Part shown: piece by piece, positions 184 through 51,241 of the stretch
Numbering within the stretch: position 1 is the stretch's first letter
Layout of the letters: every line of letters begins with the position of its first letter
Source of the DNA: a virus
Taxonomy: Duplodnaviria; Caudoviricetes
Virus record (IMG/VR): IMGVR_UViG_3300043372_000056
Coordinates: 1 to 52,536 of that record
DNA: 52,536 nt
Reading direction: 5' to 3' (one strand)
Made by a program: the position numbers and the translations under genes
Notes under the pieces: generated by a model
The model's input: only the letters and a program-made list of their open reading frames with translations
Told to the model about the DNA's origin: nothing
Databases searched by the model: none

Positions 184-1555
184 TGAGAGACTGACCGTAA
201 CCTTGCTGGGCCGCCTGTGACTGTTCTCTAAGGATAGCCTCCTGCGTGTCTCTCAGAGCGCGAGAACCGAACTCGCCCATCCGATTGCTACCAAACTGCC
301 CAGCCTTGATGAAGGCGTCAGAGACTTGCGGCAGCAGGTTCTCGGACAGGTTGCGGGCACCCTGTTTTGCGATTACGTCTAGCACACCCTGCTGATAGGG
401 CGACATATATTGGCCGACCTGAGATGCCGACGTCTGACCGGCAGCGGACAGATACGGATTTGCCGCTGTCAAAGCGCGCTCAGCAAGCGATTGGGCTGTG
501 GTGCTCTCAGCCTTGCCCAACAAAGGCTGCGCCGCGCCCACAATGTCCATCGACCCGGCGCGATTAAGATACGGCTGCGCCGCGCCCACGATGTCCAGGG
601 CACCGGCGCGATCAAGGTATGGCTGGGCTGAACCTATAACATCCAAAGCCGACGCGCGCTGAAGATACGGATCAGCGGCTTTAACGCTGTCAAGGGCGTT
701 GGCTTTATCAAAATATTTTTGAGCCGCCCCGATACCACTTTTTGACGTAGCTTGATCAAAATAAGATTTGGCGGCACCCGCAATATCTTGAGATGCGGCT
801 CGATTAAGATAGGGTTGACCAGCCCCTATAATATCTTGAGATGCTGATCGTTGAATATAAGGCTGCGCGGCTCCTGTAATATCTTGAGATGCCGCTCGAT
901 CAAGATAAGGTTGAGCCGCGCCTGCAATATTTTGAGATTCAGCGCGTTGATAATAAGGCTGGGCCGCTCCTACAAAATTTTGAGACGCGGCTTGGTTAAG
1001 ATAAGGTTGCGCCGCTCCTGTAATATTTTGATACGCCGCTTGGCTCAAATAAGGTTGCGCGGCTCCCATGAGGTTTTGAGATGCGGCTTGGCCCATATAC
1101 GGCTGGGCCGATCCCAAAATATCTTGAGACCCGGCACGCTGAAGATAAGGCTGGGCGACCCCGGCAATGTCCATCCCGGCGGCTTGGCCATACAATTGCT
1201 GGCCAGCGTTAAGGCTTGAACCGACCAAATCTTGCCGAAGATACGGAGCCTGACCGGCTTTAAGCTGATCCGCGGTTCCCCTGCCGGAAAAATCCTTCAT
1301 GCCCGTGCTGGCAAAAGTCATGTCGGGCTGGTACGCCCCGACGTTCTTGTTTACGAGATCATACGCCTGCATCTGTTGCGGGGCAAAGCCCGCAACTGTC
1401 TCACCTGTATAAGGTGTATATGGCCGGTTAGCTATATTTGTCGATGTTTGAATTAAATTGTAAATAGCATCTTGCATCCACTTCGGTGTTTCCGAAGTGT
1501 TTTGTGCATACGATGTGGCAACTTGCGGCGTGCCCTGAAACAAACTTCCAGACAT
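1..1555 (-). CDS. 5' part of an ~888-aa repeat-rich putative ejection/DNA-pilot protein; continues across the circular junction into 51242-52353
   Basis: Not in the ORF track. Hand translation from ATG 1555 (overlapping the upstream TGA) is open to base 1: MSGSLFQGTPQ...ETPKWMQ...RPYTPYTGETVAGF...YMSPYQQGVLD...; it is in frame with ORF 51242..52501. Confidence 0.85.
   Translation of the reverse strand, partial: MSGSLFQGTPQVATSYAQNTSETPKWMQDAIYNLIQTSTNIANRPYTPYTGETVAGFAPQQMQAYDLVNKNVGAYQPDMTFASTGMKDFSGRGTADQLKAGQAPYLRQDLVGSSLNAGQQLYGQAAGMDIAGVAQPYLQRAGSQDILGSAQPYMGQAASQNLMGAAQPYLSQAAYQNITGAAQPYLNQAASQNFVGAAQPYYQRAESQNIAGAAQPYLDRAASQDITGAAQPYIQRSASQDIIGAGQPYLNRAASQDIAGAAKSYFDQATSKSGIGAAQKYFDKANALDSVKAADPYLQRASALDVIGSAQPYLDRAGALDIVGAAQPYLNRAGSMDIVGAAQPLLGKAESTTAQSLAERALTAANPYLSAAGQTSASQVGQYMSPYQQGVLDVIAKQGARNLSENLLPQVSDAFIKAGQFGSNRMGEFGSRALRDTQEAILREQSQAAQQGYGQSLSAAQADLARQAQLAGTVGSISGADLSRVLQGGAQYGNLGQTAGQLTGQQMQALTNLGQTTG
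500..1205 (-). repeat. ~14 degenerate 48-bp (16-aa) coding tandem repeats, consensus AQPYLxRAASQDIxGA
   Basis: Read directly from hand translation. Confidence 0.9.
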
Positions 1556-3552
1556 CAGGCAACTCCCTTCAAATAGGTAAGCGGAGATTTAGCATCCGGG
1601 CTGAATTTACCTCGGGCGAGGGTTTTGCCTTTGTGCTTGCGGATTTCCGCCCGCATTTCATCCAACCGCTTTGCACCCGCCTTGCTCGATCCATCACCGA
1701 GCATGGCGACGGTTTCCGCATCTATAACATACTCGCCATCAGAGAGTTTGGCATCAATTTCATCCGAGCGCCCGGTGCCGCCGCCTCGCACAAAACGAGA
1801 CATGGCATTCAAGCCGCCCTGCGCCATTGCCGGGGCTTTGTTGTATTCGCCGCCGCTGACCCGGTTCCAATTTTGCGCCATGAACTGATCGAGCGTAAGG
1901 TTGCTGCTTGCAGCGTCTGCTGAAAGTTTGTCCCAATCCCACACGATACTCGGGCGGTTGAAATATTCTTGCTGAGCGGGGGATAGGTTTCTGATTGCGC
2001 TCTGCACGGCGGGAGGCGCGGTTTTAGACGAACCCATGCCAGACAACGCCGCGAGAGCGGCACCGCCCGCAAGAAGTGGACCCAGCCGACCCAGAGTGCT
2101 GCCGGAGGATGTTGCACCGGTTGTCGCCGCCCCGACGCCTTCACCATAAGTGTCAGTGATATTTGGATTTGCGGTCAGATTTGTGGGTGCGGCTGCCTGC
2201 TGGGCAGACGGGTCCGTCATGCTAGTCATGAGCGCATTGTTGTTAAACGTAGGCGGCATAAGAGTGGGGTTTTCAGCCACCCCGGTGAGGCCGGTCAGGA
2301 ACGTGTTCCCGCCAAATCCTGGCGCAGCCGGTGCTGCGGTTGTTGTGGCTCCAGGGGCTGTGGGTGCCGCACCCGTGGCAATTTGTTGATTACCTTCGCC
2401 GCCGAAATCATAGCTGGCAACCGGGCTGGCATCGGATGCAGCCGGTGCTGCGCCGTTTGTCGTGTCGGCGGCGGGAGCAGCGGCAGACGACGATGTCAAG
2501 CTCGACAAAGACGGCAGGTTAGTTTTCAACAAGCCGCTGGCAAGACTGCCAAGACCGCCGAGACCACCGGCCTGCAAAGCCTCTGAAGGCGATTGGCCTG
2601 CGGTGAGGGCGTTACCGAAACCTCTTGTCGCTCCCGCCACCACGCGGTTCAAGTCGGCGTTCTCAATGCCGAGACCGCCCATCCCGCTAATGCCCGCACC
2701 AACAGCGCCTGTGATGGCCCCGGTGATCGGATCGCGGCCTTGGAGTGCGGAAGCACCGGCACCAGCCGCCGCGCCACCAAGAAGATTTGCCGTGCCTTCT
2801 GACAGACCCAAGCCAAACGCACTGTTGATCCCGCCACCCAGGACGTTACCTAGACCCGCGCCAATACCGCCGGTCACCGCCCCGGTTAGTGGATTTCCAC
2901 CGCCAATGGCAGATGACGCCGCGCCCATGGCAGCGCCACCCAACACGCCAGCCGCCGTGCTTGCGGAACTAAGCAACCCGCCAGTGAGGGCGCTACCGAT
3001 CATTCCGCCAATGCCGGGCACAATAATGCTAAGGGCAATGGGCGCAACCGCCGCCAAAACCTTGCCCCACTTTATTTTCTTTATCCAGCTTTTGTATTCA
3101 CGCAGCCCGGTGTTTGGGTTGATCGTTCCCGAACCACCCGCACGACGAAGCATCGCCGCTTCGCGCGGGTTGACGTGCGCCAGTTCAGTGTCACCGCCTC
3201 GACCCCGCGCGGCCAATTGCCGGGCGGCAACGCTCAAACCACCCCGGGCGTAACCTTTCTTCGACAGACGATCTTGCAGGCCATAGAGGGCGACGAGCAG
3301 TGACACAATATAAACTTGGTCGTATTGCTCGGGCAGCATCTCTTCATCAACCATGTCATCGGCAATGGCCTTAGACCTGATCTCTGCGTACTTGTTAGGA
3401 TTTTTGATAATCTTTTCAAGGGTTTCAATGCCCTCATCCAGATCGTCTGGCATGATTGGCATATTGACGACGGCGCGCTCCATGGCGTCCACCGCCTGGG
3501 CGAATTTCGGATCGCTTTGGGCGATCTGCATGATTTGTTCGCGCATCGACAT
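1555..3552 (-). CDS. Putative internal virion/ejection protein, Gly-rich with hydrophobic segments and two D-x3-A-x5-E domains
   Basis: 665-aa ORF after the tail nozzle; motifs YARGG...GRGGDTELAHVNPRE...INPNTGLREY and MAQGG...GTGRSDEIDAKLSDGEYVI. Confidence 0.7.
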   Translation of the reverse strand: MSMREQIMQIAQSDPKFAQAVDAMERAVVNMPIMPDDLDEGIETLEKIIKNPNKYAEIRSKAIADDMVDEEMLPEQYDQVYIVSLLVALYGLQDRLSKKGYARGGLSVAARQLAARGRGGDTELAHVNPREAAMLRRAGGSGTINPNTGLREYKSWIKKIKWGKVLAAVAPIALSIIVPGIGGMIGSALTGGLLSSASTAAGVLGGAAMGAASSAIGGGNPLTGAVTGGIGAGLGNVLGGGINSAFGLGLSEGTANLLGGAAAGAGASALQGRDPITGAITGAVGAGISGMGGLGIENADLNRVVAGATRGFGNALTAGQSPSEALQAGGLGGLGSLASGLLKTNLPSLSSLTSSSAAAPAADTTNGAAPAASDASPVASYDFGGEGNQQIATGAAPTAPGATTTAAPAAPGFGGNTFLTGLTGVAENPTLMPPTFNNNALMTSMTDPSAQQAAAPTNLTANPNITDTYGEGVGAATTGATSSGSTLGRLGPLLAGGAALAALSGMGSSKTAPPAVQSAIRNLSPAQQEYFNRPSIVWDWDKLSADAASSNLTLDQFMAQNWNRVSGGEYNKAPAMAQGGLNAMSRFVRGGGTGRSDEIDAKLSDGEYVIDAETVAMLGDGSSKAGAKRLDEMRAEIRKHKGKTLARGKFSPDAKSPLTYLKGVA

Positions 3553-15332: not shown

Positions 15333-15875
15333 CTACTTCTTGGAAGCCTTGCGGGCTTCCGACATGCCAATCGCAACAGCCTGCTTGCGGTTCGTCACCA
15401 TGGGGCCGTTCTTGCTGCCGGAATGCAGTTCACCGGCTTTGAACTCGCCCATGACCTTGCCGACCTTGGACATGCCGCCCTTGGCCATGCCGCAGTCACT
15501 TATGCCGCCCTTGGCCATACCGCCTTTGGCCATGGCACGCATGGGCATGGCAGGGGCGCGAGCCATTGCGGCTTGGCGGTTTGCCAGAACTTGAGCCGTG
15601 GCCGCTTGAGCGGGAGTCATCGCCATGCCGCCCATAGCCATGTTCACCGAACCCTTGGCATGCGGCATCGGTGCGCCCTTGCCGTCAGACAGGAGGGTCT
15701 TAGCGGTGTTCTCCTTCTTGCTATAGAGCATGTCGCTCTTCGGGGCGGGCGAAGCGGCAGGCTTGGTTGACTTCATGTTACCCATAGCCATGCCGCCCTT
15801 GGCATAACCCGGTGCCGCCGTCTTACCGGCGGACGGAAACGTAAACTCAGAGACGTATTGCAGCGTCTTACCCAT
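15333..15875 (-). CDS. Small basic Met/Ala/Gly-rich protein with tandem MAKGG motifs and DUF6496-like C-terminus
   Basis: YAKGG, MAMGG, 3x MAKGG; KVMGEFKAGELHSG...RKQAVAIGMSEAR. Confidence 0.75.
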   Translation of the reverse strand: MGKTLQYVSEFTFPSAGKTAAPGYAKGGMAMGNMKSTKPAASPAPKSDMLYSKKENTAKTLLSDGKGAPMPHAKGSVNMAMGGMAMTPAQAATAQVLANRQAAMARAPAMPMRAMAKGGMAKGGISDCGMAKGGMSKVGKVMGEFKAGELHSGSKNGPMVTNRKQAVAIGMSEARKASKK

Positions 15876-20145: not shown

Positions 20146-20165
20146 TTCATCTCCTTTCAGATGAA
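20146..20165 (-). promoter_or_regulatory. RBS-sequestering hairpin UUCAUCU-GAAAGG-AGAUGAA
   Basis: 7-bp perfect stem ending 2 nt before the scaffold ATG; contains the GroES stop codon. Confidence 0.7.
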
Positions 20166-20887: not shown

Positions 20888-23485
20888 CTATGGATTGGGG
20901 TTGATGCCGGTGCCGGTACTGACCGCCACCTTCTCGCCGGTCGCCATCTCGGCAGCGGCAAGCAATTTGGCGGTGTCGTTATCCGCCTGATTCATGCGCT
21001 CGCGAGAAGCAAGTTCCGCCGCCTTGCGCTCGTTCTCGGCGGCTTCCTTAAGCTGGTCGGCCCGCAGCTTCTCAACGAGTTCGATCTGCTTGCCCTGGAG
21101 CTTCGCCTGTTCAAGCTGGGCCTGCATCGCAAGACGCTGCTGCTCAAGTTGAGCCTTCTGCTGCTCAAGTTGAGCTTTCTGCTGATCAGACTGGGCCTGC
21201 ATTGCAAGACGCTGTTGATCAACCTGAACACGCTGCTGATCAACCTGAGCGCGCTGCTGGTCGGTCTGGGCGCGCTGCTGAATGGCCATCTGCTGCACCT
21301 GGGCACCAAGCTGGGCGACCTGCATGCTGCTGTCAGGCGGCATCTGCGGCTGGGGTGCAAACTGCTGGGCGGCCTGGTCGATAGCGGCGAGTTCCTGCGC
21401 CATCCCGCCCAACTGCTGCTCGATGTACTGCTGAACTTGCATGATGAGCTTGGCCTGATCCTCGGCCTCTTCTGGGATCAGTTCCTTTCTCTGAGCAATA
21501 TCAACAGAGTTATGAGCCTCAACGAGGTAATAATTCAGCAGGTGGTCGCGCAAATGCACCGAAATCGGATACAAAAACGTCTTGGTGATCGCCGGATTGC
21601 TGCCAAATAGCGGCGATTTCAGGAATGCCATGTGGATCATGATGTGAGCGAGGTGATCCTGCTTTGGCAGCACATAAACAGGCCGACCCATGGCGGCAGC
21701 GACGTTTTCGCTGACCGGGTCCATGTTATCCTTGCCCGGTTCCGGCTGGAGAACCTCATCTGCCGGGACTTTCAGGGTGCGGAGGAAGATTTCCTCGACC
21801 TTGCGGGGGTCATATAGCTGCGGTATCGCCGCTGCCCGCGCCATGATCGCCTGTATCTGGGCAAAACGCTGGGTTTCGGAGAAAATTGCCGGGTCACTGA
21901 CCGGCACGACGTCGAGCGGGCCATCAAAATCGGACGGGTCGATCTCCAGCCCGTCAGATTGGGCCGCGATGTCCTCTTCGGTCAGATATGCCGAGTTGAT
22001 CCGGTGCAGAATCTTGAAACACCGGGCCATCGAGTTGTGCAGGCGAGCGTGAATGCTCGAGAACACCACCATGCCCTGCTCGATCAGGGCCATCGTGGTG
22101 CCGACCGGCTGGTTGGCGTTCTGATCGCTCAGCTTCTCGAAGGAAGTCTGGATGACGCCCTTACCGGCATCAACCAAGAACCCCAAAAGCTGGAACAGCG
22201 TCGGGCTGGGCGGATTGAAAGGCATCGGCATGGCGATCTTGCGGACGTCGTCGACAAGAGCACCGCCATCCATCTCGACCACTTCGGTCGGCTGGAGGTT
22301 GATCGTCTGCCCGCCAGGGCCACCCTTGAGCTTCAGGAGAGTGGGGATGTTCTGGATGTGGGCGCTATCCAGCAAAGCGCGCAGGGCACCTGTAGCGGCT
22401 CCTGAGAGGCCCCCAATCATATGCGTCAGGCCAATGGGGTACGCACCGCGCCAAGGCACGAACGGGAACTCGACAATCCAATCGAGTTCCTGGTGCCGGG
22501 CATCATCCGCTTCCCAGTTGCGATAGAGTGCCAGGGCCTCGCCGGTCGACTTGTCGACGCTCAGAATGTACGGGCAGAGGTCTTCGTCTTCGATGTCGAG
22601 GTAGGTGTAGATTTCAAAGATGGTCCGCAGGCCATCCTCGTTGTAGCTAGTCGATTTGCGACCCTCAATCTTGTCGTTGGCAATCGTCGCCTTGCTGAAC
22701 TCGGGATCATCGGGATACCCCAGGTCAACGTCGATATACATGCCCGCCTTAACGCGCTTCAAGTACTCCATCTTCGTGACGTACTGAACATGCGTCTTAC
22801 GCTCGGCGGTGTAGAAGTTCGTGGCGGCAAACGGCAGATACACGTCGTCAATCGGCACAAACTCGGCCTGCGGACGACGGTGCTGCGGGTTCCACATGAA
22901 TTTGAGGTATTGACCGCCGCCGAGCGGAAGCTGGGTGCTCAGTTGCTCCAGTTCGCTGCGGAACTCGGGCATCTGCTGCGTGGTCTGCCAGTTCATAAAG
23001 GCGGCTTTACGCTCAGCCTTTTCGAGCTTGGCTTTGTCCGCTTCGCCGTAAATTTTGCTCTTAACCGGCCCGTTCGACGGAAAAATTTCTTTCATGAAGC
23101 GTGCGGAGAAATCCACGCAGGCTTCGACGAGCATTGGGTGAACGACTTTGTTCGCGCCGCTGAACTGAGCACCGCCGGGGGCATCGTCACCCAGGCCGGT
23201 ACGGCGCAGCCCTTCCTCGTACAGCTTGTCCCGCTTTTCGCGGGCCTCCTTGTCGCGCTCGATCTTATCGAGCAGGTCGCTGACAACATCCTTCAGCGCC
23301 GCCTGATCGACCTCTTCGACAATGTTTGCGAAGTGCTCGAGGTGGCGCTTCTCATCCTTGCTGTTCTCGAGCCGGATAATCGCGCCGCCGTCTTCGGTAT
23401 CCTCGACCTCGAGATTGTCCTCGTCATCGAGTTCAATCATCTCGCCGGGCTTGTCGTCGTCATCGTCTTTGAGAGTGTCAGACAT
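20888..23485 (-). CDS. Portal protein (P22-like, with Gln-rich C-terminal barrel)
   Basis: 865 aa; VVHPMLVEACVDF, QPVGTTMALIEQG, SSIHARLH, DVVPVSDP; QQR/QQK heptads at the C-terminus. Confidence 0.85.
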   Translation of the reverse strand: MSDTLKDDDDDKPGEMIELDDEDNLEVEDTEDGGAIIRLENSKDEKRHLEHFANIVEEVDQAALKDVVSDLLDKIERDKEAREKRDKLYEEGLRRTGLGDDAPGGAQFSGANKVVHPMLVEACVDFSARFMKEIFPSNGPVKSKIYGEADKAKLEKAERKAAFMNWQTTQQMPEFRSELEQLSTQLPLGGGQYLKFMWNPQHRRPQAEFVPIDDVYLPFAATNFYTAERKTHVQYVTKMEYLKRVKAGMYIDVDLGYPDDPEFSKATIANDKIEGRKSTSYNEDGLRTIFEIYTYLDIEDEDLCPYILSVDKSTGEALALYRNWEADDARHQELDWIVEFPFVPWRGAYPIGLTHMIGGLSGAATGALRALLDSAHIQNIPTLLKLKGGPGGQTINLQPTEVVEMDGGALVDDVRKIAMPMPFNPPSPTLFQLLGFLVDAGKGVIQTSFEKLSDQNANQPVGTTMALIEQGMVVFSSIHARLHNSMARCFKILHRINSAYLTEEDIAAQSDGLEIDPSDFDGPLDVVPVSDPAIFSETQRFAQIQAIMARAAAIPQLYDPRKVEEIFLRTLKVPADEVLQPEPGKDNMDPVSENVAAAMGRPVYVLPKQDHLAHIMIHMAFLKSPLFGSNPAITKTFLYPISVHLRDHLLNYYLVEAHNSVDIAQRKELIPEEAEDQAKLIMQVQQYIEQQLGGMAQELAAIDQAAQQFAPQPQMPPDSSMQVAQLGAQVQQMAIQQRAQTDQQRAQVDQQRVQVDQQRLAMQAQSDQQKAQLEQQKAQLEQQRLAMQAQLEQAKLQGKQIELVEKLRADQLKEAAENERKAAELASRERMNQADNDTAKLLAAAEMATGEKVAVSTGTGINPNP

Positions 23486-26400
23486 ATCCAGCCTCGATTT
23501 GATTGGCGAGCGTGTTTACCGCGTCAGGATCATAGATAGCAGGTTGAGCACTGACCGCGCCACCCTCGGCATATTTTTGGTCTAGGTCAGCAACTGCCGC
23601 ACCCGCTGCAACCGGCGCTGCGCCAAACATCAATCGCTCAAACTGGCGAATCTGCGCCGTTCGGTCAGCATCATCCCTCGATGCCAACCGGTTGTAATAT
23701 CGGATGTCATCAACACCGTACCGGCGAAGCAAATCTGTCACGTCTTTCGATGCTTGCACAGGAACCACCGCGCCTTGGAACTCGTTCAGCGGCACTATCC
23801 GGCGAGGCTTGGCCTCGAAATAGGTGGCGGGCAAATCGCGGCCTGCTTCCAGATGTGCCCGCGTGCGTTCAAGCAGGTCTTCGGGAATTGCGTTGCCGTA
23901 ATAGTTGCGATTGATATATTCCATGCCGCCGGGGCCACGTTGCACGGCTTCGGCCATGTTGCGAGTGTGGCTATCAATGAAATTAAAATTATCACGAATG
24001 CTATCTGGCAGTGCCTCGCGAAACTCTTGACGCAAAGCACCTAGTTGATTCTGCCAATCCTCAACAGACTTATCCGTGCGGGGCACCAAGCGGTCTCTCG
24101 CTCCACGCAGTTCGCTCATGTTGCGAAACTGCGGCGTGATCTGCCCCAGCAGCCAATTATCGGTGATGAAATCCTCGCCACCACGCCATGGATCATTGGT
24201 CATGACACGCAAGGCGTTTCGAGGCGTGTGCGGTAAAAGGCGCGATTCCCCGGTGTCGTCGTTGTAAAGACGCACATATTCTTTTTCTCGGTCACGAACT
24301 GTTTTCGGTATGACAGATGGATAACGCGGCGTGTAGGCGTCGCGCGCGTAGACCGGGGTGCGCCTAGGATCGACAGTCTGCGGCGATGCTATCAATGAAA
24401 TTTCACCGAAGCTGTCCATCGGATCATCGGCGCGCGAGATGCCAATTGAAGGGGCCACGACAACGCCTTCGTTATTGGCAATCTTCTCCAACCCCGCCTG
24501 CCGAACATTGTGCATGGCCACCATCGGCGGCTCATCCGGCGTTTGGCGGCCTAACGCCCTACCCACAGCGCGACGCAGCCCACCCGCTTCCGCCTCGCTC
24601 GGCTCCATCGCCATCAGAGCCGTCGAACCTGCCAGCCGGGCCATACGACCCCCCGGCCCAAGCGCCACCATCAGGGCCGCATCCAGAGGGCTCTGCGGCA
24701 GGAAGATGTCCGACGCCAACTGGGCAGCATCATAGCCTGCGCTGCGTATAGCCCGAGCCTGTTCGGCATTGGTTGACTCGGTGGTGCGGCCCGTGTCGCG
24801 CTTCATGCGCTCGAGCAGGCGGCGGTCATACTCCTCGTCGCTCATGACGCGGCCACCCTCGGCATACCGCTGATCAAGTTCTTCGAGGCTCGGCGCGGCT
24901 TCGCCTTCACGGGCGAGGATCGCAGCGGGTGCCACGCCTGCCAGCGGGATCATGTTGCGCGTGTAGAGGCGCAGCACCTCCTCCGGTGGGATGTCCAAAG
25001 CCTGGGAGGTGATTGACATGCGCTGGTTGAGCAGTTCCGGCACCGTGTGGGCCTCGGATGCCAAGCCGGTGCGAGGGCCATAGTGAAACCACATCAGGGC
25101 CTGGGCATCGGCAGGCGTCAGCCCCAGCCGCTCGGCGATGTTCGTCGTGATGTCGTTGTAAATCGGATACTCGGTCGAAATGCTCTGGCCGCGCACCTTT
25201 TGGCCGCTGGGGCGGGCGACGAGTATCTCACGCAGTTCGTCGTCACTCATCCCACGAACGACACCCTCAGCGTTGGGTGTGTAAGCGTCGACATACTCCC
25301 GATATTTTGCGGCGGTATCAAACGACGACGCCGGGAGACCGCCGGGGTTCACGTCGTTGTAGATCATGTTAACGGCCCGGACGTTGTGAACGTCGGCGGT
25401 CACGGCAGTGCGGTCACCAGAGATGTTGCGCCCAAAGACGGTAGGCTTCGGGTTCTGGGCCAGACTGACCGTCCCTTCCAGCAAGCCTTGTGTCAGGGCC
25501 GGGTGCTGGTCGTAGATCATGCCATAACCGGAACCAGGGCCGGTCACGTTTTCGACGGTGTTCTTGTCTATCGGCAGGCCGCGCGCCATCCGGTTCTGGA
25601 GGAACGCTGAATTGAGCACGTTCTGCTCGGTGTCGGTGCGGGGGCTGGTGCCCGCAATAGCCTGGGATTCCTGGCGGATGCGGCGCAGGGCCTCATCGTG
25701 GGAAACACCCTGCCCGCGCAGGACGTCATAGACCGGGCGCATGTTGTAGAACTCACCGGCACGGGCCGATGCGATCTGGGCCGGTGTCGCACCGGGCACC
25801 TCTTCACCACGCATGATGCGTGCGATGGGGTCCAGATCGCCAACGATCCGGTCCATGGTGGTGCCGTATCTTTCCGCCAGATCGGATGCCAGACCAGCCG
25901 CCGCCCGCGATCCGGGCAGTGATTGTGTCGGTGAGATATTCTGAATGCGAAGTGATTCGAGTTCCTGAGCGACGTTTGACGGCCCAGCTTCCAATGGCTG
26001 GTCAAAACGTGCTGGCGGAAACAACTGATCTTCTGGCCGGGGCTGAACACGGGCGTCGACCGGCAAGCGCATCTGGGCGGCGCGGAAGTCGAGCACCCGC
26101 TGAGAGAGTTCGTTCGCCCGCTCCAGATCATCACCCTCGAGGCGTGGCACACCAGCCCCTGGCTGGGGTCGGGTGGCGATAGCCATCGCCTCGTCGGGCG
26201 TCATGGTGGGCTTGAGAACGCTCCGGGGCGGGTTGTTGCCGCCCATTACCGCCCTCGGGTTTTCGACAACAGGCTCAGGGGCCGAGCCCCGCACCGCACG
26301 ACGAAGCGCGCCCACGGTACGCTTCACGCGGCCACCGCTTTCATACTTCTGATGCAGATCAGCCAGCCCACCCTCAGCGTAACCCATAGCCCGACCAATC

Positions 26401-27434
26401 CGCTCACGGGCTTCGGCGGCCATGATGGATTCAGGAGCCACGTCATAGCGCGCGGCGAGCCTGTCCAGCACCATGGCGTTCAGTTGGTCCGCCGTCAGTT
26501 CCTCGCGCGGGGCCGGGCGCGGTGCGCGAGGCGTGCGGATGCGGTTTGCTCGGACGTGATAATCAAAAGCCGGAATTGGAGTCGCCACACCAGGAACTTC
26601 AACAAGGTTACCACGGGAATACTTATGATCAAGTTCAGCGAGGCCACCCTTGGCATAGCCGGGCATGCCAGCATTCCGCATGACGGTGGGCACATAGGCC
26701 CGCGTCTCAGCAATGTCGGGGATAGCGTTGCCCGCTTCTGCCACCCGTCGAGGGCCTGCGTTGTACGCCGCCAGGGCCAGCGTCATGTCACCGCCAAACC
26801 GGTCAAGCTGCTGGCGCAGGTAACGTGCGCTGCCCTCGATGTTCTGCATCGGGTCACGAGGATCAACGCCCAAATCGCGCGCCGTGCCCGGCATCAGCTG
26901 GCCGAGACCGAGAGCGCCCACCCGGCTCACCGCATTAGGGTCAAACCGGCTCTCTCGATGTAGCAGCGACAGCAGCACGTTGGGCGGCAGGCCATACCGC
27001 TCGGCCATCTGCGTGGCCGTCGCCACATACGGGTTCTCTGGGTTGAACCGGACATGCAGGGGCTGAGGTTCGGCACCGGGCACCTGCGGCAACACAGCGG
27101 GCGGGATGGGATTGCCGTCAGCACCCAACTGAGGGGGCCGTGGGGGCACCGGGAGTGCCTGGGCAGGGGTACGGGCCTGCGGCGCGGCAGCGGCCTGTGG
27201 CGCGGCCTGCTGGGGCGGTGGCGGCGGTATCACGGCAGGCGGCGTCGGCGGGATCGGCAGAGGCTGTTGGCGCTGGCCACCAAACAGCGGGGCGGTGGGA
27301 CCCGCACGCCGCTCACGGGCGAAAGCAGCTATCGGGTCAAACGGGGCCTCGCGGTTTGCAGCATTTGACCGACGCATCTGCTCGAGCAGGCCCAAGGCGG
27401 TCATGCGGGGAGGGGCGTTGTTGCGTTCGGCCAT
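23478..27434 (-). CDS. Multidomain (polyvalent) putative virion protein: Pro-rich N-terminus, SLT lytic transglycosylase, HhH-glycosylase-like (DUF7178-like) domain, ART-like domain
   Basis: SLT motifs HRESRFDP, GALGLGQLMPGTA, LAAYNAGP, ETRAYV (~26680-27040); the other domains are from motif recall; domains are separated by YxxGG motifs. Confidence 0.75.
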   Translation of the reverse strand: MAERNNAPPRMTALGLLEQMRRSNAANREAPFDPIAAFARERRAGPTAPLFGGQRQQPLPIPPTPPAVIPPPPPQQAAPQAAAAPQARTPAQALPVPPRPPQLGADGNPIPPAVLPQVPGAEPQPLHVRFNPENPYVATATQMAERYGLPPNVLLSLLHRESRFDPNAVSRVGALGLGQLMPGTARDLGVDPRDPMQNIEGSARYLRQQLDRFGGDMTLALAAYNAGPRRVAEAGNAIPDIAETRAYVPTVMRNAGMPGYAKGGLAELDHKYSRGNLVEVPGVATPIPAFDYHVRANRIRTPRAPRPAPREELTADQLNAMVLDRLAARYDVAPESIMAAEARERIGRAMGYAEGGLADLHQKYESGGRVKRTVGALRRAVRGSAPEPVVENPRAVMGGNNPPRSVLKPTMTPDEAMAIATRPQPGAGVPRLEGDDLERANELSQRVLDFRAAQMRLPVDARVQPRPEDQLFPPARFDQPLEAGPSNVAQELESLRIQNISPTQSLPGSRAAAGLASDLAERYGTTMDRIVGDLDPIARIMRGEEVPGATPAQIASARAGEFYNMRPVYDVLRGQGVSHDEALRRIRQESQAIAGTSPRTDTEQNVLNSAFLQNRMARGLPIDKNTVENVTGPGSGYGMIYDQHPALTQGLLEGTVSLAQNPKPTVFGRNISGDRTAVTADVHNVRAVNMIYNDVNPGGLPASSFDTAAKYREYVDAYTPNAEGVVRGMSDDELREILVARPSGQKVRGQSISTEYPIYNDITTNIAERLGLTPADAQALMWFHYGPRTGLASEAHTVPELLNQRMSITSQALDIPPEEVLRLYTRNMIPLAGVAPAAILAREGEAAPSLEELDQRYAEGGRVMSDEEYDRRLLERMKRDTGRTTESTNAEQARAIRSAGYDAAQLASDIFLPQSPLDAALMVALGPGGRMARLAGSTALMAMEPSEAEAGGLRRAVGRALGRQTPDEPPMVAMHNVRQAGLEKIANNEGVVVAPSIGISRADDPMDSFGEISLIASPQTVDPRRTPVYARDAYTPRYPSVIPKTVRDREKEYVRLYNDDTGESRLLPHTPRNALRVMTNDPWRGGEDFITDNWLLGQITPQFRNMSELRGARDRLVPRTDKSVEDWQNQLGALRQEFREALPDSIRDNFNFIDSHTRNMAEAVQRGPGGMEYINRNYYGNAIPEDLLERTRAHLEAGRDLPATYFEAKPRRIVPLNEFQGAVVPVQASKDVTDLLRRYGVDDIRYYNRLASRDDADRTAQIRQFERLMFGAAPVAAGAAVADLDQKYAEGGAVSAQPAIYDPDAVNTLANQIEAGYV

Positions 27435-27446
27435 GTTACTGATTCC

Positions 27447-27722
27447 TCACCATTTTACCTTGGCCGCCCAAAACGCGGCACTGCTCTTACCCTTGGCGAT
27501 GTTCTCGCCATGCCGCGCCTTGAAGCTGGCGCGCTTCGCCTTCATGCGATCCGACTCACCCTCTTTCGGCTTGCCAGCGGTGCTCGCGCCCTGCTCGCCA
27601 AAGCGGATGACTTTCTCTTTACCGTCGAAACATGCCTTGACGACGTGCGACTTTGTCGCGTGGTCCGGCGTGCGGCGCGGCTTGTTGCAAGCCATCGCGG
27701 CCTTGTCGACGGGCTTGGTCAC
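27447..27722 (-). CDS. Small basic conserved phage protein
   Basis: KSHVV...IRFGEQG...SFKARH...SAAFWA..VKW. Confidence 0.75.
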   Translation of the reverse strand: MTKPVDKAAMACNKPRRTPDHATKSHVVKACFDGKEKVIRFGEQGASTAGKPKEGESDRMKAKRASFKARHGENIAKGKSSAAFWAAKVKW

Positions 27723-27886
27723 TTCTTCTTCGCCGCTCGCATGTTGTCGACCAGATTTGGGTAGGGTCGACCGGCAGACTTGGCCATAGCCTTAGCCGAT
27801 GCCTTGCGCTTCGATGACAGTTCCTTGCTCTCGCCCAGATCGGCGGGGCGCTTCTTGTCCCAGATCGGCTTAGGGCTACGCGGCAT
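27719..27886 (-). CDS. Small basic protein (55 aa)
   Basis: Not in track; MPRSPKPIWDKKRP...AKSAGRPYPNLVDNMRAAKKK; overlaps the terL end and the next start. Confidence 0.7.
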   Translation of the reverse strand: MPRSPKPIWDKKRPADLGESKELSSKRKASAKAMAKSAGRPYPNLVDNMRAAKKK

Positions 27887-30470
27887 AAGGGTTCACCTTT
27901 TCACGTCGAAATTGTGGCGGCTCATCGCGTTCTCGAGCCTGTGGCAGTTCAAACCATCGCTCATTCTTCAAAAACAGAATGGCCTGGGTGAATGTATCGA
28001 CGTAATCATCATGTTCTGCAACCGGAAACTTGGCCAACTGCTTGATGCAAGGCTGTGCCCAGCTTACCGGCTGGCCCCTGTTCTTCCCCGACTCGGGCAC
28101 CCAGACGAAACCTAGCTCCAGTGTCGGGGCGGCCTGATGGGCTCGGCTGACCTTGTCGGCCATGCCCGGGTTGTAGCCCACCGCAGGCACGCGGGCCTGG
28201 CGCAGGTCTTGCAGCAGCGATTGACCGCTGGCCTTAGCCTCGACGAGTATCCGGTCGGGCTTGCGCGGGCGGCGGATGCCATCTTTGACCGATGTCGCAC
28301 CATACTCGGTCGACCAGTCTTTGATCGCCCGGGCGCGCAGGTCAGGATAGCTGAGGTGCTCGTCCCAGGCGTCAATGAGCAGGATGTTGCGTTGACCGCT
28401 GTGGGTGAAGACGGCCCACACCGTGCAGGCTGTCGGATCGCCGCTAGTTTTCTCGGTGAATGCACAATCGTACGATTGCAGGATGTATTCAAACTGCGGC
28501 AGCGGCTTGTCGGCAGGCCATAGCTGTATCTCAGATGTCTTCAGAATGCCGCCCGTGCTCGGCGTCGGATCCTGCTGAAGCTGACCAGCAGTGCCGTACA
28601 CGCCGAGCAATTGTTTCAGTTCAGTGATTTCTTTTGGGCCAAAACGCTCGGCACAGATCAACTCGCCTTTGACCTGGCGCGGATCATACGGGCCGAGCAC
28701 CGTCCTGCGCCGCACACCATCCCACTCAGCCGGAATGAGCAGGTGCTCCCAGCCCCCGATGTCCTCGAGAATGTGTCCCGATATGTCGCGCTCGTGCAGG
28801 CGCTGCATAATCGTGACCATGGCGTCTTTTTTCGGATCGTTCAGGCGCGTGCTCCAGACCACGTCGAACCACTCGAGGGCGCTGCTGCGGATGGCATCGC
28901 TCTGGGCCTCTTGAGCACTGTGAGGGTCATCGAGAATGAGGCGGGAGCCACCCTCACCCGTCGCCGTGCCACCCACTGACGTGGCAAGCCGGTAGCCCGT
29001 CCTGTCATTCTCAAACCGCTGCTTGGCATTCTGGTCGCCGCTCAGCTTGATCAAATGCCCCCAGCGTTCCTGATACCAGGGCGACTGAATGAGGCGGCGA
29101 GCCTTGAGGTTGTCGCGGATGCTCAGGTTACCGCTGTAGCTGGCGCAAAGATATTTATGTTCGGGGTTGGTCAGCCATTCCCACATCGGCCACATCACGC
29201 TGACGATAGTGGATTTGGAATTATGGGTGACGATGTACCCGTCACCAACCATGAACAGGCCGTCTGCGCGATCAACGCGGATGCACTGCGTACTGTCGAC
29301 CTCATCAAGCTTTTCAATCTTGATGTATCGGCCAAATTTCGGATCAGTAGATTTTGTTCTGTTTTCTTTCCGCGAAAGATGGGCGACGTCTTTCGCATAA
29401 AAAGAAACTTTCCATGTCGGCCCAACGTCCCGACCATCCAAAGTGGCTCTAGTTTCTATGGAGTTTGCCTTAATTCCAAGGCTCCTGAGCAGGCGAAGAA
29501 CTTGATTGATAAAAGCAAAGTTACTTTGAGCAAAGAAGCATTGACCGCCGACGGCTATGTTGCCGTCGGTGTCCATCAGGCCTTTGAGAAGATCCCGGCG
29601 CTGCGACACGCTTGCCTGAAGATATTGCTCAGGGATGTGTTTGTTATTTATCAGGTTAAGCTTTCGAAGCTCGGTCATGAGGCCGAGGATCGTATGCCGA
29701 TATCGTGCTTGCGGTTTCCTCACCATGTAGCCTCTGCGCTCGATTTCAGCGCAGACCTCTACCGCGTCTTCCTCAGACATTGTGAAGCTGCTGTTGGCCG
29801 ATGTTCCATCCCCCAGCCAGACACCGAGAACATATGGGTCGACGGGAAGATCCTTGTGTCCATGCTGAGACGCTGCGAAATTCGGCAGTCGAGGCAGCCT
29901 GACATCTTTAGTCGGACGATTGAAGTTTAGCTCAGTTGCGCCGCCGCGCTTTTTTCTCAGAAACGCGCCGTTCTGTCGGTGCCAGAGCTCTTCTGTCGTG
30001 TAATCGTTGAATTGCTTGTATTTTCTATCAAGCCTAACTGTCCAAATATGGTCGCCGTCAACGTCGACGAAAGCGCCATCGTCTGTCCAAACGCGATAGA
30101 TCGGCCTGTCATTAAACACTTCAGACTTGCCAAGAACTTGAACAAGCTGGCCATCCGGGCCGAAGACCATGTCTCCAACATTGAGATCTTCGACCGATAT
30201 CATCCCGCGCATGGTTGGCACAATCGTACCAAGGCGAAGCGCGTGACGCGGCGGGATGTTGATCAACAGCTTGCGAAGCTGCCCGGCAGTGATCGCCTCC
30301 AAATGTTCACATATCTCTTCGATGTGCCACGACGGCACGAACGGCACGCCAGGCTCCACGACGTGCCAGGACTGCTTCACGAACTCGTACATGCTGGCCG
30401 AGGCCGCGCGCCGTTCCTGCTCCCGCCGGATCATGTCGAGCATGACAGCGGGGCTGAGAGGCTTGTTCAC
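27876..30470 (-). CDS. terL: Terminase large subunit containing an intein
   Basis: Walker A NIPPRH/SKS split by the intein; Walker B LILDDPH; MQRLHERD; nuclease QSYDCAF...HDDYVD. Confidence 0.95.
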   Translation of the reverse strand: MNKPLSPAVMLDMIRREQERRAASASMYEFVKQSWHVVEPGVPFVPSWHIEEICEHLEAITAGQLRKLLINIPPRHALRLGTIVPTMRGMISVEDLNVGDMVFGPDGQLVQVLGKSEVFNDRPIYRVWTDDGAFVDVDGDHIWTVRLDRKYKQFNDYTTEELWHRQNGAFLRKKRGGATELNFNRPTKDVRLPRLPNFAASQHGHKDLPVDPYVLGVWLGDGTSANSSFTMSEEDAVEVCAEIERRGYMVRKPQARYRHTILGLMTELRKLNLINNKHIPEQYLQASVSQRRDLLKGLMDTDGNIAVGGQCFFAQSNFAFINQVLRLLRSLGIKANSIETRATLDGRDVGPTWKVSFYAKDVAHLSRKENRTKSTDPKFGRYIKIEKLDEVDSTQCIRVDRADGLFMVGDGYIVTHNSKSTIVSVMWPMWEWLTNPEHKYLCASYSGNLSIRDNLKARRLIQSPWYQERWGHLIKLSGDQNAKQRFENDRTGYRLATSVGGTATGEGGSRLILDDPHSAQEAQSDAIRSSALEWFDVVWSTRLNDPKKDAMVTIMQRLHERDISGHILEDIGGWEHLLIPAEWDGVRRRTVLGPYDPRQVKGELICAERFGPKEITELKQLLGVYGTAGQLQQDPTPSTGGILKTSEIQLWPADKPLPQFEYILQSYDCAFTEKTSGDPTACTVWAVFTHSGQRNILLIDAWDEHLSYPDLRARAIKDWSTEYGATSVKDGIRRPRKPDRILVEAKASGQSLLQDLRQARVPAVGYNPGMADKVSRAHQAAPTLELGFVWVPESGKNRGQPVSWAQPCIKQLAKFPVAEHDDYVDTFTQAILFLKNERWFELPQARERDEPPQFRREKVNPYAA
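29220..30242 (-). mobile_element. 341-aa intein (Ala1, class-3 WCT signature) with LAGLIDADG homing endonuclease
   Basis: Starts ALRLGT, ends IVTHN/S; DHIW (block B), TQCIRV (block F); LGVWLGDG and LKGLMDTDG. Confidence 0.92.
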
Positions 30471-33070: not shown

Positions 33071-33081
33071 GGAACACGACT

Positions 33082-51230: not shown

Positions 51231-51241
51231 ATCCAGCCTCC

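What the first reader, a model, noticed from the sequence alone, without database searches (positions are those of the whole stretch)
23478..27434. 1318-aa effector 'polyprotein' between terL and portal, with domains delimited by YxxGG motifs
Seen order: Pro-rich leader, SLT, YAKGG (26643-26657), short module, YAEGG (26367-26381) and YESGG (26331-26345), glycosylase-like domain, YAEGG (24852-24866), ART-like domain, YAEGG (23559-23573), short tail. The two large modules are framed alike: G(A/G)LRRAV near the start and a hydrophobic (AG/GA)(V/A)(A)P-AA stretch plus LxxLDQ(R/K)Y at the end. Inference: a cassette-built, virion-packaged precursor cut into separate enzymes injected with the DNA, one for wall penetration and others acting on nucleic acids or host defence.
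Basis: partly seen in the sequence, partly recalled or inferred. Interest (0 to 1): 0.85.

Follow-up and report, generated by a model that had tools for sequence, protein, structure and literature searches.

The report
Phage cargo protein built from cassettes
A giant phage protein encoded beside the portal gene is a string of swappable enzyme modules joined by one short repeated peptide, which shows how an abundant uncultured phage keeps changing the proteins it probably injects into its host.

Summary
The 1318-aa ORF, its place between terL and portal, and all five Y..GG motifs are at the stated coordinates. Shuffles of the protein give 0.25 such motifs on average and never 5.

It is a phage "polyvalent protein" in the sense of Iyer et al. 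2017. It has a Pro-rich leader, an SLT lytic transglycosylase, a DUF7178-type cassette, a short hydrophobic module, a PBECR5-type cassette and a universal 26-aa tail.

Fifty-two relatives carry the same junction, (G)YAEGG-LAxLxxK-YAEGG-(R/A)V. Cutting them at the motif gives clean cassette families in 30 different orders among 37 full-length proteins. DNA breakpoints against related contigs fall in the junctions. In one contig a whole cassette is missing, with a 14-nt overlap inside the YAEGG codons. Stand-alone homologues of both large cassettes end where the junction begins.

The same motif occurs in three other putative internal virion proteins of this phage, so it looks like a shared signal and not a mere spacer.

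Cleavage into separate enzymes is not shown. None of 40 ORFs scanned hit a peptidase family. "Glycosylase-like" is unsupported. "ART-like" is only weakly supported here, although relatives carry a true ART in that slot.

Verdict: new variant of a known kind.

The parts
23478..27434 (-). Whole 1318-aa polyvalent protein gene (P0001), stop included
27045..27434 (-). N-terminal leader, aa 1-130. The first ~30 aa are conserved in relatives; aa 41-130 are Pro-rich (28 P).
26730..27011 (-). SLT lytic transglycosylase domain, aa 142-235. The AlphaFold-confident stretch runs to about aa 259. The strings HRESRF, GLGQLMP and AYNAGP are present; reading them as the catalytic motifs of this family is recalled, not from a call.
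26643..26657 (-). Junction motif 1, YAKGG (aa 260-264), directly after the confident SLT fold
26382..26642 (-). Short module, aa 265-351 (cassette family 3, 72-104 aa). It is present in 25 segments of the 53 proteins.
26331..26381 (-). Double junction YAEGG-LADLHQK-YESGG, aa 352-368 (motifs 2 and 3, 12 aa apart)
24867..26330 (-). Cassette of the DUF7178 type, aa 369-856. It starts with the basic stretch RVKRTVGALRRAV and ends with the hydrophobic LAGVAPAAILA and the helix LEELDQRY.
24852..24866 (-). Junction motif 4, YAEGG (aa 857-861). It lies in a stretch with pLDDT below 50, and a DNA breakpoint against L004 falls here.
24579..24851 (-). Hydrophobic ~90-aa module, aa 862-952, ending in the degenerate junction AEAGG (aa 948-952). 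It occurs as a separate Y..GG-bounded 88-aa module in 3 relatives and in front of other cassettes.
23574..24578 (-). Cassette aa 953-1287. Pfam names it PBECR5 (match aa 971-1064). The confident AlphaFold domain spans aa ~970-1270. It ends with the hydrophobic FGAAPVAAGAAVA and the helix DLDQKY.
23559..23573 (-). Junction motif 5, YAEGG (aa 1288-1292), in a stretch with pLDDT below 50
23481..23558 (-). Universal 26-aa C-terminal tail, aa 1293-1318. It is present in 47 of 53 family members and is predicted helical.
15333..15875 (-). P0066, 180 aa. It has GYAKGG at aa 23-28, three further MAKGG copies, and a C-terminal DUF6496 domain. It carries the same motif as the junctions.
1555..3552 (-). 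P0067, 665 aa, Gly-rich. It has GYARGG near aa 100 and MAQGG near the C-terminus. Both motifs are kept in 6 of 6 relatives.
49833..51230 (-). P0068, 465 aa. Its N-terminus reads LYRLNQKY...SAYAKGGSV...FDEGGL, which resembles a double junction.
27876..30470 (-). terL, the upstream neighbour (contains an intein)
20888..23485 (-). Portal, the downstream neighbour. Its start overlaps the end of the polyvalent gene by 8 nt.

Best explanation
This is a phage polyvalent protein, meaning several effector enzymes on one chain. It is most likely packed in the head and delivered at infection.

The N-terminal SLT domain would cut peptidoglycan at entry. The cassettes behind it would act in the host at the very start of infection: a DUF7178-type enzyme of unknown chemistry and a PBECR5-type domain that is either a nuclease or ART-like.

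Each cassette is a formerly independent cargo protein. It runs from a basic N-terminal stretch to a hydrophobic C-terminal tail. Cassettes are joined by a conserved peptide junction: an amphipathic helix LxxLxQ(K/R)Y followed by A(E/K)GG and then (R/A/L)V, often doubled with a 12-aa period.

Shown here: the junctions are the points at which cassettes are swapped, gained and lost by recombination between the repeated junction-coding DNA. This produces a hypervariable cargo set.

Inferred: the junction peptide is itself a functional signal shared with other internal virion proteins. It is either a site for a maturation protease or a docking/loading peptide. These data cannot tell which, and cleavage is not demonstrated.
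For: Domains and context. SLT 1.1e-23 and PBECR5 4.8e-14. The SLT region matches internal-virion and lytic-tail PHROGs. The gene sits between terL and portal. A separate endolysin lies elsewhere in the genome. Pfam hits on 7 relatives add PBECR5, DUF7178 and ART-PolyVal, which belong to the polyvalent-protein repertoire.

Junction. There are 308 Y..GG motifs in 53 family proteins, with 83 pairs exactly 12 aa apart. The flanks are conserved: L at -7 and -4, K/R/G at -1, V/A at +6.

Cassettes. Cutting at the motif gives families in which 185 of 212 segments have a partner with 80% coverage both ways. Random cuts give 107-137 of 287-310. There are 30 architectures in 37 full-length proteins.

Breakpoints.
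- 45% of interior HSP ends lie within 20 aa of a motif, against 16% for random points.
- A block 96% identical to P0005 runs from aa 351 to 950, from junction to junction.
- P0010 is near-identical up to AEAGGLRR and then carries an ART (YHGT, GRGLYFA) in place of PBECR5.
- DNA breakpoints against the window fall at aa 273, 356, 857, 950 and 1284. In L004, aa 356 is joined to aa 857 with a 14-nt overlap inside the YAEGG codons.

Selection at peptide level. Motif codons vary synonymously: TAC/TAT 9/9, GAG/GAA 10/4.

Stand-alone homologues.
- Proteins 69-78% identical to cassette 5 (L005-L009, L011) end 10-12 aa after IPLAG..., as do PBECR5-type proteins P0072, P0074, P0076 and P0077.
- The DUF7178 domain is mostly C-terminal in the listed representatives of 478 clusters.
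- 18 of 147 carry [hydrophobic]A[KERQHD]GG, 20 sites against 7 expected. Several of these sites lie right at the C-terminal end.

Structure. Motifs 4 and 5 lie in stretches with pLDDT below 50 that flank a domain with pLDDT mostly 78-96. Motif 1 directly follows the confident SLT fold.

Shared signal. YA[KR]GG occurs in three other proteins of the structural block (P0066, P0067, P0068) and, as a YA[KRE]GG match, in no wrong-frame ORF. It is conserved in their relatives. A more distant phage, MW202545, has 4 such motifs in its terL-portal protein and 3 in another head-block protein.
Against: - Packaging and delivery are inferred from gene position and domain type only. No virion data exist.
- The nearest cultured relative by portal (Caulobacter phage RW, 59%) has no gene at all between terL and portal, and few motifs.
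- No peptidase family was found in 40 window ORFs. A phage-encoded protease for the signal is therefore unsupported.
- The shift-by-60-aa control clusters almost as well as the true cuts (172 of 213). That test alone does not pin the boundary.
- Cassette 5 could not be modelled (mean pLDDT 41.7). Motifs 2 and 3 are therefore not shown to lie outside a fold.
- Two of 8 P0068 relatives lack the YAKGG copy through an exact 8-aa deletion. At least that copy is dispensable.
- Y..GG alone is not sufficient as a signal: the capsid protein has YQSGG inside its fold.
Confidence: 0.75

Rival explanations
1. True polyprotein. A protease, phage-encoded or from the host, cuts at or after the Gly-Gly of every junction inside the head or after ejection. 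This releases the SLT, the DUF7178-type enzyme and the PBECR5-type enzyme as separate proteins. It also trims N- or C-terminal peptides from P0066, P0067 and P0068.
For: - The motif is repeated, selected at peptide level, and lies in low-confidence inter-domain stretches.
- In P0066 and P0068 it lies about 22-28 aa from the N-terminus, like a propeptide.
- Doublets 12 aa apart (83 pairs) would release a small spacer.
- Stand-alone homologues show that each cassette can exist as a separate protein.
- Precedent: head proteases that cut ejection proteins in giant phages (abstracts of PMC10052503 and PMC5694885 in the listing).
- Gly-Gly sites used by adenovirus, ASFV and coronavirus proteases and by double-glycine leader peptidases are recalled, not from a call.
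Against: - No peptidase family was found in 40 ORFs scanned with Pfam, nor with PHROGs or NCBIfam on the structural genes.
- The head genes between portal and capsid are shared with phage RW, which lacks the gene and most motifs.
- In stand-alone homologues the motif sits 3-15 aa from the C-terminus, where a cut would release nothing useful.
- There are no fragment data.
Confidence: 0.3
2. Loading or docking peptide without cleavage. The hydrophobic tail plus helix plus A(E/K)GG is a short signal that binds a head-interior partner (capsid lumen, scaffold or portal) and so loads cargo into the prohead. The polyvalent protein is a chain of cargo proteins that each kept their own tag.
For: - The motif or a Gly-rich hydrophobic tail sits at the extreme C-terminus of stand-alone DUF7178 and PBECR5-type proteins.
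- The motif is also present at the ends of three other putative internal proteins.
- A universal 26-aa C-terminal helix follows the last motif in 47 of 53 proteins.
- The analogy to encapsulin cargo-loading peptides and the T4 capsid-targeting sequence is recalled, not from a call.
Against: - No partner was identified and no binding test was run.
- Tails of stand-alone homologues are diverse, and only 18 of 147 carry the strict motif.
- The motif is dispensable in 2 of 8 P0068 relatives.
Confidence: 0.25
3. Passive joint. The junction is only a flexible, fold-neutral spacer. Its sequence is conserved because repeated homology is what lets cassettes recombine in frame, and it has no biochemical role of its own.
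For: - DNA breakpoints lie in the junction codons, with a 14-nt overlap in L004.
- The junctions have low pLDDT.
- There are 30 architectures in 37 proteins.
Against: - Synonymous sites in the motif vary freely, so the exact DNA repeats are short.
- The same peptide recurs in unrelated single-domain proteins of this phage (P0066-P0068) and in a distant phage with different DNA. No cassette exchange is involved in those proteins.
Confidence: 0.2
4. Not a virion protein. The gene encodes a cytoplasmic or lysis-stage multi-enzyme that merely lies in the late operon.
For: Packaging is not shown by any search. Phage RW manages without such a gene.
Against: - A dedicated endolysin exists elsewhere in the genome.
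- The SLT region matches internal-virion and lytic-tail PHROGs.
- The gene is in the terS-terL-portal block, and its end overlaps the portal start.
- According to Iyer et al. 2017 (passages seen), PBECR and ART-PolyVal domains are typical of proteins encoded among virion genes.
Confidence: 0.07

Closest known systems
Polyvalent proteins of phages and conjugative elements (Iyer, Burroughs, Anand, de Souza, Aravind 2017, PMC5512222; passages read)
   Same: - Several effector or enzymatic domains lie on one chain, drawn from the same repertoire (lysozyme/transglycosylase, PBECR, ART).
- The gene lies among portal-terminase head genes.
- Domain architecture is strongly mosaic among orthologues. 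The paper describes up to 50 combinations for H. pylori jhp1044.
- The paper likewise predicts packaging, injection and possible proteolytic release.
   Different: - The paper's proposed processing agent is an embedded metallopeptidase (MPTase). None is present here.
- The main text does not contain the words linker, boundar-, demarcat-, shuffl- or glycine. A conserved junction peptide that marks every cassette boundary is therefore not described there. Its supplements could not be seen.
T7 gp16-type internal virion protein with an N-terminal lytic transglycosylase
   Same: A large protein with an N-terminal SLT domain. The match to phrog_342 'internal virion protein with endolysin domain' is 2.2e-25 over aa 130-265. 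tblastn hits an 'internal virion protein D' at 43% over aa 138-289.
   Different: Similarity is confined to the SLT domain. The rest consists of exchangeable enzyme cassettes. The gene lies between terL and portal, not in a core-protein block. The T7 gene order is recalled, not from a call.
Head-packaged ejection proteins processed by a prohead protease (T4 internal proteins and Alt; phiKZ/SPN3US ejection proteins)
   Same: Cargo proteins carry a short shared sequence signal and are delivered with the DNA. In SPN3US a prohead protease cuts many head proteins (abstracts of PMC10052503 and PMC7411985 in the listing).
   Different: Those systems have an identified protease gene and sites ending in Glu (recalled). 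Here no protease was found, and the signal ends in Gly-Gly.
Polymorphic toxins with a conserved motif in front of an exchangeable toxin domain (CdiA VENN, Rhs DPxGL; recalled, no call)
   Same: A short conserved peptide marks the boundary at which variable enzyme domains are swapped by recombination.
   Different: Those proteins have one variable C-terminal domain each. Here there are up to 10 motifs and several cassettes in series, in any order, and in a phage head gene.
MuF or portal-adjacent minor head proteins fused to effector domains; Roseobacter phage CRP-212 gp38
   Same: CRP-212 gp38 (1203 aa, next to the portal) carries a DUF7178 domain (1.5e-08). The domain ends with IPLL..., a hydrophobic Gly-rich stretch and ELARGG.
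   Different: CRP-212 gp38 has a single effector domain, lies downstream of the portal, and has no repeated YAEGG junctions.

Membership tests
Polyvalent proteins (Iyer et al. 2017) | Two or more distinct effector or enzymatic domains in one polypeptide | tested here: met
   SLT 1.1e-23 and PBECR5 4.8e-14, plus a DUF7178-type cassette
Polyvalent proteins (Iyer et al. 2017) | [quoted passage not shown] | tested here: met
   The gene lies between terL and portal, with capsid, adaptor and fibre genes downstream
Polyvalent proteins (Iyer et al. 2017) | Variable domain architecture among orthologues | tested here: met
   30 architectures in 37 full-length relatives
Polyvalent proteins (Iyer et al. 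2017) | Packaged in the capsid and delivered into the host | not testable with these tools
   Context only; there are no proteomic data for this uncultured lineage
Virus-style polyprotein | A protease that recognises the repeated site | tested here: inconclusive
   None of 40 window ORFs hit a peptidase family in Pfam. PHROGs and NCBIfam also gave none for the structural genes scanned. Many ORFs have no family at all, and a host enzyme is possible.
Virus-style polyprotein | Mature products that correspond to the segments between sites | not testable with these tools
   Needs a gel or mass spectrometry
SLT lytic transglycosylase (PF01464) | Profile match above the curated cut-off, with the ES, GLxQ and AYNxG motifs | tested here: met
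   83.4 bits against a cut-off of 21.3. HRESRF, GLGQLMP and AYNAGP are at aa 159-228. The motif names are recalled.
PBECR5 (PF18814) | Profile match above the curated cut-off | tested here: met
   53.2 bits against a cut-off of 25, but only profile positions 16-111 of 239 are matched
PBECR5 (PF18814) | [quoted passage not shown] | tested here: inconclusive
   The model of aa 970-1270 gave no BECR protein among the 50 rows listed. The top rows are ART folds at Z 5.7-7.5.
ADP-ribosyltransferase (ART-PolyVal PF18760 / DarT-like) | Profile match or H-Y-E type sequence motifs | tested here: not met
   There is no PF18760 hit in P0001 at E <= 0.01. The YHGT and GRGLYFA strings of P0010's cassette are absent here.
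ADP-ribosyltransferase (ART-PolyVal PF18760 / DarT-like) | ART fold | tested here: inconclusive
   DarT 7yk3_C Z 7.5 (129 aligned, rmsd 3.3); 7omv Z 7.3; 8baq Z 6.4; 7omu Z 6.1; Tpt1 7yw4 Z 6.0; CteC 8ux2 Z 5.7. The tool states that Z under 8 is common for unrelated pairs.
DUF7178 (PF23802) | Profile match above the curated cut-off | tested here: inconclusive
   P0001 scores 21.7 bits against a cut-off of 27. Homologous cassettes pass: P0017 at 33.1 bits and CRP-212 gp38 at 35.3 bits. 36 of 70 distant homologues match at E <= 0.001.
   - No Pfam family other than DUF7178.
- A profile of 70 homologues found no solved structure beyond E 0.76.
- The Atlas gave no usable hit.
- The model was too poor for a fold search.
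T7 gp16-like internal virion protein | Homology beyond the SLT domain | tested here: not met
   The PHROG and tblastn matches to internal virion proteins cover only aa 130-289

The most novel reading that the evidence does not exclude
The hydrophobic tail, the LxxLxQKY helix and A(E/K)GG together form a portable tag. It marks a protein as head cargo in this phage lineage, either as a docking peptide for the prohead interior or as the site of a still unrecognised Gly-Gly-specific maturation protease. The polyvalent protein is then a natural plug-and-play array. Any tagged cargo gene can be spliced in or out by recombination between tags. This would let phages with 93-99% identical capsids carry different anti-host arsenals.
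Probability: 0.3. Interest if true: 0.8.

Novelty: new variant of a known kind. Interest (0 to 1): 0.6.

Why it matters
Polyvalent proteins are known as a concept. How their domain sets change so fast, and how the domains are handled after packaging, is open.

This family gives a clean, testable case. One short peptide marks every cassette boundary. Recombination breakpoints fall in it. Whole stand-alone cargo genes can be recognised inside the fusion. The same peptide tags other internal virion proteins.

The capsid protein has 7998 relatives at E <= 0.001 among 8000 candidates, and the 120 listed are 93-99% identical. The lineage is therefore abundant in public metagenomes, and the cargo gene is its hypervariable spot.

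If the junction proves to be a loading or processing signal, it would be a compact natural tag for putting chosen proteins into phage heads. It would also give a way to read, from metagenomes, which effectors phages deliver first. In addition it provides a defined set of unknown early-acting enzymes to assay: DUF7178, PBECR5, and at least eight cassette families without any Pfam match.

Tried and rejected
- Internal translation starts at the junctions. The GAGG in the AEGG codons looks like a ribosome-binding site. Rejected: only 6 of 21 motif instances have an in-frame ATG, GTG or TTG within 5 codons after the Gly-Gly.

- Selection on DNA only. Rejected as the sole cause: motif codons vary synonymously.

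- Fold identification. Foldseek against the PDB with the PBECR5-cassette model gave nothing at E <= 0.001. The wide VIA search gave ART folds only at Z <= 7.5.

- AlphaFold on aa 100-960, with 19 of the 52 relatives as alignment. Only the SLT domain was confident (mean pLDDT 41.7). Nothing can be said about the fold of cassette 5 or about motifs 2 and 3. The second model used 17 of the 52 relatives.

- Function of DUF7178. No solved relative was found with a 70-sequence profile. The Atlas gave no usable hit. No paper contains the term.

- Search for a protease.
  - Pfam on 40 window ORFs, PHROGs on 23 and NCBIfam on 10 gave no peptidase family.
  - phmmer against PDB sequences found nothing meaningful for the 197-aa and 220-aa head-block ORFs.
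  - The Atlas places the 306-aa ORF nearest to scaffold proteins, at a weak 0.86.
  - Small ORFs under about 80 aa and several ORFs of the + strand were not scanned.

- The shift-by-60 control did not discriminate: 172 of 213 against 185 of 212.

- Complex prediction was not used. No single partner could be named, and I judged a pass more likely false than true.

- Literature. 'YAEGG' occurs in 8 papers, none about phages. YAKGG, MAKGG, FAKGG, FAEGG and MAEGG occur in 151 papers; the 25 listed are all unrelated and the other 126 were not seen. Supplements of papers were closed, and those of Iyer et al. 2017 might bear on whether such junctions were noticed.

- Rows dropped.
  - All family counts use P0001 plus P0005-P0056 (53 proteins). 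P0057-P0065, 9 hits that share only the SLT domain, were left out.
  - In some searches and then 70 of the 150 listed hits (of 478) were used.
  - The pairing of capsid proteins with polyvalent proteins rests on equal 'longest contig' lengths. It is an inference, not a check.

Full report
**Observation.**
The ORF 23478..27434 on the minus strand encodes 1318 aa. Shuffling the protein 20,000 times gives 0.25 such motifs on average, at most 4, and never 5. The framing elements are also real: GALRRAV at aa 375-381 and GGLRRAV at 951-957; hydrophobic A/G/V/P stretches at 831-841 and 1270-1282; LEELDQRY and DLDQKY directly before the motifs. The leader has 28 prolines in aa 41-130.

**Surroundings.**
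- Upstream lie terS (Sf6_terminase 1e-11), terL (phrog_38 3e-82) and a 91-aa ORF (phrog_7595).
- Downstream, overlapping the end of the gene by 8 nt, lies the portal (phrog_1216 1.7e-16).
- After the portal come a GroES-like gene, three ORFs without a family, the capsid protein (Phage_capsid_4), SU10-type adaptor proteins, a fibre-like protein and a separate endolysin.
- The replication genes are on the other strand.
- The gene therefore sits in the head block of a probably podovirus-like phage. Its SLT domain is not the lysis enzyme.

**Domains.**
- Pfam finds SLT (aa 142-235, 1.1e-23), PBECR5 (aa 971-1064, 4.8e-14) and, below the cut-off, DUF7178 (aa 589-693).
- The middle cassette belongs to a large family. 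A phmmer scan of 1.84 billion representatives gives 478 clusters at E <= 0.001. Of 70 distant members scanned, 36 match DUF7178.
- Its function is unknown. There is no solved relative, no paper, and no support for 'glycosylase-like'.
- The last cassette folds confidently at aa ~970-1270 (pLDDT mostly 78-96). Foldseek finds nothing.
- In the exhaustive structure comparison, six of the nine best rows are ADP-ribosyltransferase folds: DarT four times, Tpt1 and CteC. Their Z scores are only 5.7-7.5, which the tool says is common for unrelated pairs.
By sequence the cassette is PBECR5.

**The junction.**
In P0001 and 52 relatives (P0005-P0056) there are 308 Y..GG motifs, 2 to 10 per protein. Eighty-three neighbouring pairs are exactly 12 aa apart. 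The consensus is G-YAEGG-LAxLxxK-YAEGG-(R/A)V. In other words, a short amphipathic helix LxxLxQ(K/R)Y runs into A(E/K)GG. Synonymous codon positions vary (TAC/TAT 9/9, GAG/GAA 10/4), so the peptide is what is conserved.

**Cassettes.**
- Cutting the 53 proteins after each Gly-Gly and clustering the pieces gives clean families: leader+SLT; a 72-104-aa module; PBECR5 (~350 aa); two DUF7178 types (~490 and 518 aa); an ART-PolyVal type; at least eight families with no Pfam match; and a 26-aa tail present in 47 of 53.
- Of 212 pieces of 40 aa or more, 185 have a partner with 80% coverage both ways. Random cuts give 107-137 of 287-310.
- A uniform shift of the cuts by 60 aa scores almost as well, 172 of 213, so this test alone does not localise the boundary.
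- Among 37 proteins that run from the SLT block to the tail there are 30 different cassette orders.

**Where the exchanges happen.**
- Interior ends of high-identity HSPs lie within 20 aa of a motif in 45% of 3911 cases, against 16% for random positions.
- The block shared at 96% with P0005 runs from aa 351 to 950, from the double junction to the degenerate junction AEAGG.
- P0010 is near-identical through the hydrophobic module up to AEAGGLRR. It then carries a sequence-typical ART (YHGT, GRGLYFA) where P0001 has PBECR5, and rejoins at the last junction.
- At DNA level, related viral contigs break against this gene at aa 273, 356, 857, 950 and 1284.
- In L004 the sequence up to aa 356 is joined directly to aa 857, with 14 nt shared inside the YAEGG codons. 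This is the expected footprint of recombination between two junction repeats that removes or inserts the whole DUF7178 cassette.

**Cassettes are whole proteins.**
- Contigs L005-L009 and L011 encode stand-alone proteins of 563-630 aa that are 69-78% identical to cassette 5. They stop 10-12 aa after the hydrophobic IPLAG... stretch. In L007 such a gene lies upstream of a 729-aa ORF that I take to be a portal from its position only.
- Stand-alone PBECR5-type proteins (P0072, P0074, P0076, P0077) likewise end just after the hydrophobic stretch.
- In the listed DUF7178 representatives the domain is mostly C-terminal, followed by a hydrophobic, Gly-rich and then acidic tail.
- 18 of 147 carry [hydrophobic]A[KERQHD]GG, 20 sites against 7 expected. 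Several have it as the last few residues, for example ...IPLMAEGGLVS.
- The junctions of the fusion therefore correspond to the C-terminal tails of independent cargo proteins.

**Structure.**
- Motifs 4 and 5 lie in stretches with pLDDT below 50 on either side of the confident domain. Each is preceded by a predicted short helix.
- Motif 1 follows directly on the confident SLT fold.
- The rest of that model is unreliable (mean pLDDT 41.7), so motifs 2 and 3 are undecided.

**The motif elsewhere.**
- A profile of the junction, run over all six-frame ORFs of the window, finds YA[KR]GG in three more proteins of the structural strand. No wrong-frame ORF carries a YA[KRE]GG copy.
  - P0066 (180 aa): GYAKGG near the N-terminus and three MAKGG.
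  - P0067 (665 aa, Gly-rich): GYARGG and MAQGG.
  - P0068 (465 aa): an N-terminus that resembles a double junction.
- Both P0067 motifs are kept in 6 of 6 relatives.
- P0068 relatives have YAKGG in 4 of 8 and YSHGG in 2 of 8. In the other 2, an exact 8-aa deletion removes the motif while FDEGG or FNYGG remains.
- A distant phage, MW202545 (portal 48% identical), has an unrelated 890-aa protein between terL and portal with four such motifs, and a 449-aa head-block protein with three.
- Caulobacter phage RW (portal 59%) has no gene in the interval and almost no motifs.
- The peptide is therefore more than a recombination scar. It behaves like a signal shared by putative internal virion proteins.

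**Is it cut?**
No call shows cleavage. None of 40 window ORFs hit a peptidase family in Pfam. PHROGs (23 ORFs) and NCBIfam (10) add none. The head genes between portal and capsid are shared with RW, which lacks the motif. A host protease or an unrecognised phage one remains possible. I put cleavage at about 0.3, a docking or loading role without cleavage at about 0.25, and a purely passive joint at about 0.2.

**Comparison and novelty.**
- The protein meets the tested criteria of the polyvalent proteins of Iyer et al. 2017: several effector domains, a virion-gene context and mosaic orthologues (passages read).
- That paper proposes embedded metallopeptidases for processing. Its main text does not contain the words linker, boundar-, demarcat-, shuffl- or glycine.
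- No paper in the library has the motif in a phage context among those listed.
- The new element is the junction. One conserved peptide marks every boundary, is the site of cassette exchange, matches the tails of free cargo proteins, and recurs on other internal proteins.
- The 120 listed capsid relatives are 93-99% identical while the cargo gene varies. This inference partly rests on matching contig lengths.
- I rate this a new variant of a known kind.

**Limits.**
There is no isolate and there are no proteomic data. Supplements of papers were closed.

Noticed in passing
window 27876-30470 (-), aa 77-417 of terL: terL carries a 341-aa insertion relative to a 95% identical intein-free homologue (L010, 528 aa). 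It lies between ...NIPPRH and SKSTIV..., ends in THN followed by S, and contains a LAGLIDADG_3 match. This is an intein in the ATPase P-loop region that begins with Ala.
   Followed up: partly
window 15333-15875 (-), P0066: A small Met/Ala/Gly/Lys-rich protein with four (Y/M)AKGG copies and a C-terminal DUF6496 domain (6.4e-11). DUF6496 is a family of unknown function found in bacteria.
   Followed up: partly
window 1555-3552 (-), P0067, C-terminal ~90 aa; L013 5243-8854: The C-terminus of P0067 (...SDEIDAKLSDGEYVIDAETVAMLG...) resembles the C-terminal region of Roseobacter phage CRP-212 gp38 (...DDIPALLSEGEYVLPADVV...). It also gives weak hits to tape-measure PHROGs. This is a second short motif shared among putative internal proteins of unrelated phages.
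   Followed up: no
window ends: 1555-3552 and 47716-52501 (-): In relatives (L016-L020) the P0067 and P0068 homologues lie about 2.2 kb apart on one strand. The window is therefore a circular permutation of a complete ~52.5-kb genome, and the minus-strand structural operon runs across its ends.
   Followed up: partly
window 20157-20564 (-): A GroES-like gene (Cpn10 4.2e-09) lies just after the portal and is conserved in RW and MW202545. Its mobile-loop region reads KVTKGGIILSS, which loosely resembles the junction core A(K/E)GG(L/I)(V/A). This is probably coincidence.
   Followed up: no
window 27447-27722 (-): A 91-aa basic ORF (phrog_7595, 3.1e-35) lies between terL and the polyvalent gene. 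Related contigs L003 and L010 have a gap of similar size there. MW202545 has an unrelated 71-aa ORF in that position, and RW has a tRNA-Val.
   Followed up: no
L002 6224-8896 (MW202545.1): The terL-portal interval of this more distant phage holds an 890-aa protein with a GP88 domain (2.8e-07) instead of the SLT and other cassettes. It nevertheless carries four (K/M/Y)A(K/E)GG motifs.
   Followed up: partly
window 17081-17995 (-), capsid protein: The search returned 7998 proteins at E <= 0.001 among 8000 candidates, and the 120 best are 93-99% identical. This is a very abundant, capsid-conserved uncultured phage lineage. The capsid protein contains YQSGG at about aa 71, inside the fold.
   Followed up: no
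window 8793-9578 (-) and 32938-33687 (+): A 2OG-Fe(II) oxygenase gene lies within the structural strand. A DNA polymerase III beta (sliding clamp)-like ORF lies in the early region.
   Followed up: no
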